64,000 nucleotides of DNA from IMG/VR virus record IMGVR_UViG_3300043427_003402, one strand, 5' to 3'. The stretch is from a virus. The position numbers and the translations under genes were made by a program. The notes under the pieces were generated by a model that worked only from the letters and a program-made list of their open reading frames with translations, did no database searches and was not told the origin of the DNA. Positions 41,567 to 41,857 of this stretch are shown in pieces. Every line of letters starts with the position of its first letter. Position 1 is the stretch's first letter.

Positions 41567-41857
41567 AATAAAACCGCCCGCTATAACACGTAACCGTGTC
41601 AGCGGGCGGTGGACTAGACGGCGCGATTAACGTGTAACCGGCGCTACCGTTACCTGGTTGCGGTACAAGTACGAAACCTGTAAATGCAAAGGGCGGTGAA
41701 GTCACCACATCTAGTCAGTTGCTGCCTGCAGGCCTGAGCCAAGGTGCCAAGCAGGTTAAACACCCGCCTATAGAACCTGGGTCTACAAGAATCTGCAGCA
41801 CGGGCCGTCGACTAACTGGCCTGCAGCCGGAGTGGCGGGCCGGCCGCCGCTCCACTC
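41567..41857 (-). ncRNA. candidate structured non-coding RNA, about 290 nt
   Basis: TATACT -10 at 41862-41867, at least six helices with G-U pairs in minus orientation, terminal terminator hairpin. Confidence 0.55.

What the first reader, a model, noticed from the sequence alone, without database searches (positions are those of the whole stretch)
41567..41857. Candidate ~290-nt highly structured ncRNA with its own promoter and terminator
Seen (minus strand): TATACT just upstream, then helices GAGTGGAGCGG/CCGCCACTC, CTGCAG/CTGCAG, CTTGTAGA/TCTATAGG, GGCGGGT/ACCTGCT, and a domain closed by GACTAGATG/CGTCTAGTC (41708-41716 with 41612-41620) enclosing GTGGTGA/TCACCGC and TACAGGT/ACTTGTA. It ends in ACCGCCCGCT...AGCGGGCGGT-TTTATT. 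Several mismatches are G-U only in this orientation, as expected for selected RNA structure. There is no credible ORF, and I do not recognise it as tRNA, tmRNA or RNase P.
Basis: partly seen in the sequence, partly recalled or inferred. Interest (0 to 1): 0.7.

Follow-up and report, generated by a model that had tools for sequence, protein, structure and literature searches.

The report
New structured phage RNA, function unknown
An uncultured freshwater phage carries a roughly 290-base gene for a folded, non-protein-coding RNA whose shape is kept across related phages by paired compensating mutations; it matches no known RNA family and what it does is not yet known.

Summary
On the minus strand, 41567-41860 lies between a 116-aa and an 81-aa ORF. 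It has no conserved ORF and folds far better than shuffles (z -4.9). It ends in a 16-bp hairpin plus U-run.

Folding energy alone is not decisive here: a coding stretch nearby scores z -6.4. The decisive evidence is comparative. Homologues were found in seven metagenome contigs, giving four distinct variants. The same multi-helix fold is kept in all four. Sixteen of 96 pairs show changes on both sides, against 0-3 in slid controls and 6.5 ± 1.7 in shuffles. G·U pairs outnumber A·C 31 to 3, which fixes the minus strand as the RNA.

A sequence-invariant core (H2/H3 and the base of the 3' domain) contrasts with fast-evolving arms. These arms are about 50% identical between phages whose flanks are 96-98% identical.

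A conserved TATACTTTAAG block marks the 5' edge. The next gene has its own GATAATT promoter-like motif.

There is no Rfam, tRNA or tmRNA match. No relatives were found outside one small clade of freshwater phages, and no RNA-seq run holds the locus.

Best reading: a new, separately terminated phage ncRNA, probably protein-binding. Its function is inferred, not shown. This scan has not reported it on other DNA.

The parts
41857..41872 (-). Conserved 5' boundary block TTAGTATATACTTTAAG. It holds a -10-like TATACT (41862-41867) followed by TTTAAG, and is the putative promoter and transcript start.
   Evidence: It is 92-100% identical in all variants, while the adjoining 116-aa gene is 56% identical at the DNA level. 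It is kept whether or not the upstream ORF overlaps it. Look-alike motifs occur 8 times against 2.7 expected. In the window there is no convincing -35. The transcription start site was not mapped.
41567..41860 (-). The candidate RNA (columns 1-294 of alignment A6); the 5' end is approximate.
   Evidence: z -4.94. There are 96 consensus pairs, 95.3% of cells paired, and 16 pairs with changes on both sides. G·U 31 against A·C 3. No conserved ORF.
41832..41855 (-). H1, the 5' hairpin. Its sequence is variable and its structure only partly kept.
   Evidence: 82% of cells are paired and one pair changes on both sides. The segment cols 1-32 that holds it is 53-59% identical between the two main lineages.
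41803..41828 (-). Conserved core: the 5' strand of H2 (GGCTGC, 41823-41828) and hairpin H3 (41803-41821), which displays the invariant palindrome GTCGAC.
   Evidence: 90-100% identical in all pairwise comparisons. H2 pairs with 41720-41725. The pairs are almost invariant, so covariation cannot test them.
41726..41798 (-). H4/H5, a long irregular rod of 73-75 nt. Its sequence evolves fast and its shape is conserved.
   Evidence: H4 has 7 of 19 pairs changed on both sides. Identity is 51-53% between the window and the other variants, including L006, whose flanks are 96-98% identical.
41612..41716 (-). 3' domain: a multi-way junction closed by the 9-bp helix H6 (41708-41716 with 41612-41620). Inside are the small hairpin GGTG-ACTT-CACC, arm 2 and a variable arm 3.
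   Evidence: H6 is 100% paired with 2 double changes; arm 2 and arm 3 also carry double changes. Two alternative pairings of cols 154-170 are both compatible with the data.
41567..41610 (-). Intrinsic terminator: a 16-bp interrupted hairpin (41573-41610) followed by TTTTATT.
   Evidence: 98% of cells are paired and 13 of 16 pairs are invariant. The U-run follows the hairpin only on the minus strand. It is conserved in all variants.
41531..41537 (-). GATAATT promoter-like motif serving the downstream 81-aa gene. It is not part of the RNA.
   Evidence: All 10 copies in the window are on the minus strand, against 3.1 expected and 0 of 100 shuffles. Of the 13 minus-strand [GT]ATAATT sites, eight lie in intergenic DNA and eight lie 40-75 nt before a gene start. 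It is kept at this place in L001, L002, L006, L018 and L042.
41870..42220 (-). Upstream 116-aa ORF of unknown function, the last gene of a MazG / SLOG block.
   Evidence: No Pfam or PHROG hit. It is 52% identical to P0002. It sits directly upstream of the RNA in all contigs that reach that far.
41252..41497 (-). Downstream 81-aa ORF with a basic N-terminal two-thirds; conserved.
   Evidence: 77-95% amino-acid identity among variants. An exhaustive profile search finds only one further relative, P0009. The AlphaFold model is poor, pLDDT 54.

Best explanation
This is the gene for a previously uncatalogued structured non-coding RNA of about 290 nt, in a small clade of large freshwater phages. It is read from the minus strand.

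Shown:
- A multi-domain fold: a 5' hairpin, a three-way junction with a sequence-invariant hairpin and a long variable rod, a second multi-way junction, and a terminator hairpin.
- The fold is maintained by compensatory substitutions.
- There is no coding potential.
- The RNA ends at a strong, conserved intrinsic terminator.

Inferred:
- It is made as a discrete molecule. It could start at the conserved TATACT/TTTAAG block, or be carried as the tail of the upstream operon's transcript. Either way it is released at the terminator.
- The next gene starts afresh from its own GATAATT motif.

Most likely mechanism (inference only): a stable, trans-acting RNA that works through its three-dimensional shape, as a binding partner, scaffold or decoy for a phage or host protein. 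The invariant H2/H3 core and the base of the 3' domain would be the recognition surface. The fast-evolving arms would be structural spacers.
For: - Structure: z -4.94. Each of the four variants folds on its own into the same architecture.
- Covariation: 16 of 96 consensus pairs change on both sides, with a covariation term of -5.36. 95.3% of cells are paired. The observed 16 compares with 6.5 ± 1.7 in shuffles (0 of 500 reach it) and 0-3 in slid controls.
- Negative control: a coding stretch with an even lower z (-6.4) has 1 of 100 compensatory pairs and a covariation term of +4.25.
- Strand: G·U 31 against A·C 3. The U-run follows the terminator hairpin only on the minus strand.
- Non-coding: stops in every frame of every variant.
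- A discrete unit: the 5' block is conserved, the terminator is conserved, and a separate GATAATT motif stands before the next gene.
- Core against arms: 90-100% identity against about 50%.
- Precedent: in giant phages with their own RNA polymerases, transcription units in which a terminator closely follows a start site give discrete sRNAs, some of them conserved upstream of structural genes (PMC11512511, read).
Against: - No transcript has been observed, and the 5' end is unmapped.
- In the window's lineage the TATACT element lacks a usable -35, and the promoter scan did not call it.
- No terminator separates the upstream operon from the RNA, so it could be merely that operon's 3' UTR.
- Only four distinct variants from one narrow clade exist. 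The core helices are invariant and so untested by covariation. Related sequences can also inflate the shuffle control.
- No partner protein or target has been identified. The protein-binding mechanism is a guess drawn from the core-versus-arms pattern.
Confidence: 0.5

Rival explanations
1. It is a cis-acting 3' end module of the upstream MazG / SLOG / 116-aa operon. On this reading it is a long structured 3' UTR plus terminator that insulates early or middle genes from the late block and protects the mRNA from 3' exonucleases. It would have no function of its own in trans.
For: - No terminator lies between the 116-aa stop codon (41870) and the RNA, so read-through transcripts must include it.
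- There is no good -35 in the window.
- This phage punctuates its operons with hairpins followed by GATAATT.
Against: - A terminator hairpin alone would do that job. Instead, about 250 nt of additional multi-junction structure is kept by compensatory change.
- The 26-nt H2/H3 core and the 5' TATACTTTAAG block are held nearly invariant, while the neighbouring coding DNA diverges to 56%.
Confidence: 0.2
2. It is a leader or checkpoint for the downstream structural-gene block. Two versions are possible. It could be a riboswitch-type attenuator whose terminator is opened by a ligand or factor. Or it could be a lambda pR'-6S-tR' or HK022 put-like arrangement, in which modified polymerase reads through the terminator.
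For: - The order promoter-like block, then structured RNA, then strong conserved terminator, then same-strand virion-type genes resembles those systems.
- The 3' strand of H6 abuts the terminator by one base.
- The terminator stem is conserved in sequence (84-98%), as expected of a regulatory checkpoint.
- HK022 put acts as a nascent RNA on the polymerase (PMC9378689, listed).
Against: - The next gene has its own conserved GATAATT motif, a motif strongly enriched on the coding strand and lying before gene starts elsewhere.
- A search for alternative helices present in all four variants found no antiterminator that sequesters the terminator's 5' arm. It found only GC-rich look-alikes of that arm.
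- No Q-like or other antiterminator family was found among the neighbours.
- No riboswitch family matches, even at E ≤ 10.
Confidence: 0.15
3. It is a strongly diverged member of a known RNA class, such as a tRNA-like or tmRNA-like RNA, a Y RNA, a guide-RNA scaffold for the phage's TnpB, or a ROOL/GOLLD relative, that current models fail to recognise.
For: - The 3' domain is a cloverleaf-like junction.
- Weak tmRNA_permuted hits (14.5 and 17.2 bits, E about 1.3) recur in two variants.
- Earlier notes of this scan say the same genome carries tnpB with spare guide scaffolds (unchecked here).
Against: - The tmRNA hits lie on the antisense strand and far below the 47-bit threshold.
- ARAGORN finds nothing in the window or the homologues.
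- No family reaches its gathering score.
- No tnpB, iscB, Ro or reverse-transcriptase gene is among the ten neighbouring ORFs scanned (five on each side).
- The RNA ends in a terminator rather than a guide.
- No look-alike stretch was found in the other windows of this genome.
Confidence: 0.05
4. It is a DNA-level element (an origin, packaging site or recombination site), or a chance fold without function.
For: Both strands fold better than shuffles. A recombination breakpoint between the window and L006 lies inside the element.
Against: - The G·U over A·C asymmetry of 31 to 3 would not be maintained in a DNA cruciform.
- Compensatory changes in many helices argue against a chance fold.
- No repeats or iterons were noticed on reading the sequence; the repeat finder was not run.
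Confidence: 0.03

Closest known systems
Intergenic and 5'UTR-derived sRNAs of giant phages that carry their own RNA polymerases (201phi2-1 sRNA005 and the phiKZ sRNA upstream of gp182; PMC11512511)
   Same: Both are phage-borne. In both a transcription start is followed closely by a terminator, the unit sits just upstream of virion genes, the secondary structure is conserved among related phages, and the function is unknown.
   Different: Those sRNAs are under 250 nt with simpler folds, and they were defined by transcript mapping. Here there is no transcript evidence, no sequence relation was seen, and the fold has two multi-way junctions.
GOLLD and ROOL large ornate RNAs, often phage- or prophage-borne (in Rfam; cryo-EM in bioRxiv 10.1101/2024.12.08.627333)
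   Same: They are complex, multi-helix, non-coding RNAs supported by covariation, associated with phages, with no known biochemical function. That abstract reports 3-D structures of large ornate bacterial RNAs including GOLLD, under the title 'RNA-only complexes'.
   Different: From my own knowledge they are roughly 2-3 times longer. No Rfam family at all, these included, reaches even E ≤ 10 at the locus. Self-assembly of this RNA is untested; the only hint is an invariant GUCGAC palindrome in H3.
Lambda pR'-6S RNA-tR' leader and the HK022 put RNA (PMC9378689)
   Same: A short transcript that is terminated promoter-proximally, lying directly upstream of late genes on the same strand.
   Different: In lambda, the late genes have no promoter of their own and need the Q protein, and the 6S leader is not a covariation-supported fold. 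From my own knowledge, put consists of two small stem-loops of about 70 nt. Here the next gene has its own promoter-like motif and no antiterminator gene was found.
Phage T4 stable RNAs C and D, and phi29 pRNA (from my own knowledge, not checked in papers here)
   Same: Discrete, stable, structured phage RNAs that are neither tRNA nor mRNA.
   Different: They are unrelated in size and sequence. No Rfam family, whichever of these it holds, matched at E ≤ 10.

Membership tests
Any Rfam 15 family (riboswitches, 6S, tmRNA, RNase P, SRP, Y RNA, GOLLD, ROOL, HEARO, raiA, group I/II introns and others) | A covariance-model score at or above the family's gathering threshold | tested here: not met
   There are 0 matches at gathering score over the whole window. 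At E ≤ 10 on the locus and on three homologous contigs only noise appears, best E 0.096 on a plant miRNA model.
tRNA / tmRNA | A cloverleaf or tRNA-like domain recognised by ARAGORN, on the sense strand | tested here: not met
   ARAGORN finds 0 genes in the window and none in L001, L002 or L006. The tmRNA_permuted hits of 14.5-17.2 bits against a 47-bit threshold are antisense.
Independent bacterial or phage ncRNA gene | No conserved reading frame | tested here: met
   Every frame has stops in all four variants, and 1-2 nt indels occur between variants.
Independent bacterial or phage ncRNA gene | Secondary structure conserved through compensatory substitutions | tested here: met
   16 of 96 pairs change on both sides. 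Controls give 0-3 (slid) and 6.5 ± 1.7 (shuffled). A coding control gives 1 of 100.
Independent bacterial or phage ncRNA gene | Intrinsic terminator at the 3' end | tested here: met
   A 16-bp hairpin plus TTTTATT, conserved in all variants. The simple terminator scan missed it, probably because its loop limit of 3-8 nt cannot take an interrupted stem.
Independent bacterial or phage ncRNA gene | Its own promoter | tested here: inconclusive
   The TATACT + TTTAAG block is conserved. In L001 and L002 a GTGACG hexamer lies 16 nt upstream (read), but the window has no -35. The phage reportedly has its own polymerases, so sigma-70 rules may not apply.
Independent bacterial or phage ncRNA gene | A discrete transcript observed | not testable with these tools
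   No RNA run holds the locus; all holders are DNA metagenomes.
Riboswitch / transcription attenuator | A conserved antiterminator helix mutually exclusive with the terminator, and a downstream gene that depends on read-through | tested here: not met
   No conserved helix sequesters the terminator's 5' arm. The downstream gene has its own conserved GATAATT motif.
Lambda Q/qut-type or put-type antitermination leader | An antiterminator protein gene nearby (Q type), or the two-stem put fold just downstream of the promoter; late genes without a promoter of their own | tested here: not met
   No Q-like family is among the ten neighbouring ORFs scanned, five on each side. No put family hit appears in Rfam. 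A GATAATT motif lies between the terminator and the gene.
TnpB/IscB omega-RNA or other guide-RNA scaffold | Adjacency to the nuclease gene, and a variable guide at one end | tested here: not met
   The neighbours are MazG, SLOG, NUDIX and unknowns. The 3' end is a terminator and the 5' end is a self-paired hairpin. No look-alike was found in the genome's other windows by shared words.

The most novel reading that the evidence does not exclude
The RNA is a self-assembling or RNP-forming machine part rather than a regulator. On this reading the invariant H3 hairpin displays the palindrome GUCGAC. The H3 loop (AGUURGU) is also complementary to two conserved UGACU motifs. These would mediate homo-oligomer or long-range tertiary contacts, as in the phage-associated ROOL and GOLLD RNA cages. 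The hypervariable rod and arm 3 would carry strain-specific recognition, for example discrimination between co-infecting phage strains, or binding of the co-conserved basic 81-aa protein.
Probability: 0.1. Interest if true: 0.8.

Novelty: new variant of a known kind. Interest (0 to 1): 0.5.

Why it matters
Structured RNAs with several junctions and a sequence-invariant core are rare. When studied, they have often turned out to be ribozymes, riboswitches, RNP cores or self-assembling particles.

Phage-encoded examples are few and nearly all of unknown function. This one is compact (about 290 nt), has clear boundaries, and already comes with natural compensatory variants. That makes it a tractable test case for what such RNAs do in large phages that run their own transcription.

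If it proves to be only a 3' UTR or insulator, it still documents how this phage punctuates its operons.

Tried and rejected
Searches for relatives that found nothing:
- blastn of the locus against 50,697 GenBank phages: no match.
- tblastn of the 226-aa and 1524-aa proteins against the same phages: no match.
- Peptide-pattern scans of IMG/VR with three neighbouring proteins: no relatives.
- DNA pattern scans of IMG/VR, JGI metagenomes and GTDB genomes. These gave only chance matches, as shown by nhmmer and a covariance model.

Other steps that led nowhere:
- A covariance model of the 3' domain (R1) found no paralogue in the window. It also found no hit in L018 or L042.
- The contig with the 78%-identical 81-aa protein P0004 could not be read because the sample file is too large.
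- No RNA holder was listed among the public sequencing runs.
- Laying contigs of four freshwater runs gave only a few SNPs. The ones mapped fall mostly in unpaired or variable positions, apart from one uncompensated change in H1, and there are too few for a test.
- The AlphaFold model of the 81-aa protein was poor (pLDDT 54), so no fold search was run.

Readings considered and dropped:
- A lambdoid late-leader reading, because the neighbours are MazG, SLOG and NUDIX genes with no Q.
- A group I intron joining the two flanking ORFs. The 81-aa ORF has its own Shine-Dalgarno sequence and ATG, and no intron model hits.
- Homology with the positional analogue in L042. No sequence or model similarity was found, and that region folds only weakly, z -2.2.

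Full report
**What is there.** The window is part of a large, uncultured freshwater phage.
- It has no match in GenBank phages, and pattern scans of IMG/VR found no relatives.
- All sequencing runs that hold it are freshwater DNA metagenomes.
- Earlier notes of this scan say the genome encodes a multisubunit RNA polymerase and a TnpB. I did not check those notes.

On the minus strand, a 372-nt gap separates a 116-aa ORF (41870-42220) from an 81-aa ORF (41252-41497). The 116-aa ORF is the last gene of a block that includes MazG and SLOG genes. A NUDIX gene and virion-type genes follow downstream of the 81-aa ORF.

**Is it more than chance?**
- The minus strand folds at -134.5 kcal/mol, z -4.94 against 200 dinucleotide shuffles. 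The plus strand gives z -3.39.
- Fifty other 291-nt windows of the same strand give z -0.68 ± 1.54.
- Energy alone is not enough in this GC-rich genome. A stretch inside the SLOG/MazG genes reaches z -6.4.

**Relatives.** Searches over 5.8 billion proteins with the two flanking ORFs led to seven metagenome contigs with the same gene order. They represent three further variants of the element: L006/L007, L001 and L002-L005.
- Each variant folds on its own into the same architecture.
- The RNAalifold consensus has 96 pairs. Sixteen keep pairing through changes on both sides, and the covariation term is -5.36.
- Counting on that structure gives 95.3% of cells paired. Sixteen pairs change on both sides, against 6.5 ± 1.7 in 500 shuffles (none reaches 16) and 0-3 when partners are slid by 1-3 columns.
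- Clear examples are CTGCAG/CTGCAG becoming TTGTAA/TTACAA, GACTAGATG/CGTCTAGTC becoming GACTGGGTG/CGCCCAGTC, and ACAGGT/ACTTGT becoming GCAAGT/ACTTGC.
- The coding stretch with the better z-score serves as a control. It has 1 of 100 compensatory pairs and a covariation term of +4.25.

So the structure, not just the sequence, is under selection.

**Strand and coding.** G·U cells outnumber A·C cells 31 to 3. The U-run follows the terminator hairpin only on the minus strand. All three frames contain stops in every variant, and 1-2 nt indels separate the variants.

**Anatomy** (columns of alignment A6; window position = 41861 minus column).
- H1: a variable 5' hairpin.
- Three-way junction: H2 (GGCUGC/GCAGCC) closes a junction that holds H3 and the H4/H5 rod. 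H3 is a hairpin that is 90-100% identical everywhere and displays the palindrome GUCGAC. H4/H5 is a 73-75 nt rod.
- 3' domain: the 9-bp helix H6 closes a second junction with a small GGUG-ACUU-CRCC hairpin, arm 2 and arm 3.
- Terminator: a 16-bp terminator hairpin follows H6 after one base, then UUUUAUU.

Pairwise identity by domain shows a conserved core and fast arms.
- Core and terminator: H2/H3 90-100%, the base of the 3' domain 82-100%, the terminator 84-98%.
- Arms: H4/H5 51-53% and arm 3 40-48% between the window and the other variants.
- The low arm values hold even against L006, whose upstream flank is 93-98% identical to the window.

Those bases belong to the long rod. Two mutually exclusive pairings of cols 154-170 fit the data equally well.

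**Boundaries.**
- The block TTAGTATATACTTTAAG at the 5' edge is 92-100% conserved, while the adjoining coding DNA is 56% identical.
- Similar motifs occur 8 times in the window against 2.7 expected. One lies before a 1429-aa ORF that an earlier, unchecked note reads as RNA polymerase. Another lies before a second structured intergenic region.
- The window's copy has no usable -35, and the promoter scan did not call it.
- Downstream of the terminator lies GATAATT. All 10 copies of this motif in the window are on the coding strand, against 3.1 expected.
- Of the 13 minus-strand [GT]ATAATT sites, eight lie in intergenic DNA and eight lie 40-75 nt before a gene start, several of them right after a hairpin.
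- GATAATT is kept at this place in every relative, including the distant L018 and L042.

The simplest reading is a transcription unit of its own, or the tail of the upstream operon, that ends at the terminator. A fresh promoter then serves the next gene.

**What it is not.**
- No Rfam 15 family reaches its threshold in the window. Nothing below E about 0.1 appears at the locus or in three homologous contigs.
- ARAGORN finds no tRNA or tmRNA in the window or in the homologous contigs L001, L002 and L006. The recurring tmRNA_permuted hit is antisense and about 30 bits below threshold.
- There is no nuclease, reverse transcriptase, Ro or Q-type gene among the ten neighbouring ORFs scanned, five on each side.
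- No conserved antiterminator helix was found.

**Distribution.**
- Pattern scans of IMG/VR, JGI metagenomes and GTDB genomes gave only chance hits.
- An exhaustive profile search with the 81-aa protein over 1.84 billion representatives found one more lineage, P0009/P0012.
- In that lineage's 132-kb contig (L042), the 85-aa homologue of the 81-aa gene is again preceded by GATAATT and a terminator.
- Upstream of those lies a roughly 490-nt non-coding stretch. It starts at a perfect TTGACA-17-TATAGT promoter and begins 'TAAAGAG'.
- That stretch shows no sequence or model similarity to this RNA and folds only weakly, z -2.2.

The family as defined is therefore confined to one small clade. The locus may be a conserved slot for a non-coding transcript.

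**Mechanism.**
- Shown: a conserved multi-junction RNA fold, the strand, the lack of coding, and the terminator.
- Inferred: it is a discrete RNA.
- Guess (about 45-50%): it acts in trans through its shape as a partner, scaffold or decoy for a protein. The invariant core would be the contact surface and the arms would be spacers. This is the usual pattern of protein-binding and catalytic RNAs, whereas base-pairing sRNAs conserve short single-stranded seeds.
- Rivals: a cis 3' UTR/insulator (about 20%), a leader or checkpoint for the late block (about 15%), a diverged known class (about 5%), and a DNA element or chance (about 3%).

**Comparison with known RNAs.** The closest known kind is the set of terminated short transcription units found by transcript mapping in giant phages with their own polymerases. 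One of these is conserved upstream of a tail gene, and all are of unknown function (PMC11512511). GOLLD and ROOL are the best-known ornate phage-associated RNAs (bioRxiv 10.1101/2024.12.08.627333). Neither they nor any other Rfam family matches.

**Verdict.** This is a real, new RNA family of a familiar kind, an orphan structured phage ncRNA. It is well supported structurally but without expression data or a function.

Noticed in passing
window 42900-43190 (-): A stretch inside the SLOG and MazG coding genes folds at -150.9 kcal/mol, z -6.4. That is stronger than the RNA candidate. Across three relatives, however, it shows only 1 of 100 compensatory pairs and an unfavourable covariation term. 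It is either GC-driven chance or a lineage-specific mRNA structure.
   Followed up: partly
window 21892-45042 (-), e.g. 41531-41537, 39336-39342, 37209-37215, 32116-32122: All 10 copies of GATAATT lie on the coding strand, against 3.1 expected. Of the 13 minus-strand [GT]ATAATT sites, eight are intergenic and eight lie 40-75 nt before a gene start, several right after a hairpin. This is a likely phage-specific promoter class with no -35 element. It is conserved in relatives.
   Followed up: partly
It is preceded at 48133-48144 by GTATACTTTATA, a motif close to the one before this RNA. It shows no sequence similarity to this RNA.
   Followed up: partly
window 16678-16689 (-) and 21903-21914 (-): Further copies of the TATA(A/C)(C/T)T(T/G)TAAG-like motif lie in intergenic DNA. 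One is about 34 nt before the 1429-aa ORF, which an earlier, unchecked note reads as RNA polymerase. The other is directly upstream of a GATAATT. This may be a second promoter class.
   Followed up: no
L042 5201-6000 (+): A distant relative on a 132-kb Logan contig has an 800-nt gene-poor stretch before its 85-aa homologue of the 81-aa gene. It has an AT-rich upstream region and a perfect TTGACA-17-TATAGT promoter, starts 'TAAAGAG', and has a terminator at about 5890-5926 followed by GATAATT. It is not detectably homologous to this RNA. The truncated contig L018 shares its 3' part.
   Followed up: partly
window 41567-41860 compared with L006 2339-2628: Two phages whose upstream genes are 93-98% identical differ by 24% in the RNA, 16% in the 81-aa gene and far more in the 226-aa gene. 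A recombination breakpoint therefore lies inside the RNA near column 62 (about 41799).
   Followed up: partly
window 41252-41497 (-): The 81-aa protein is basic over its first two-thirds and acidic at the end. It is 95% identical between lineages whose 116-aa neighbour is only about 50% identical. It has no known family. Only one further lineage turned up among 1.84 billion representatives.
   Followed up: partly
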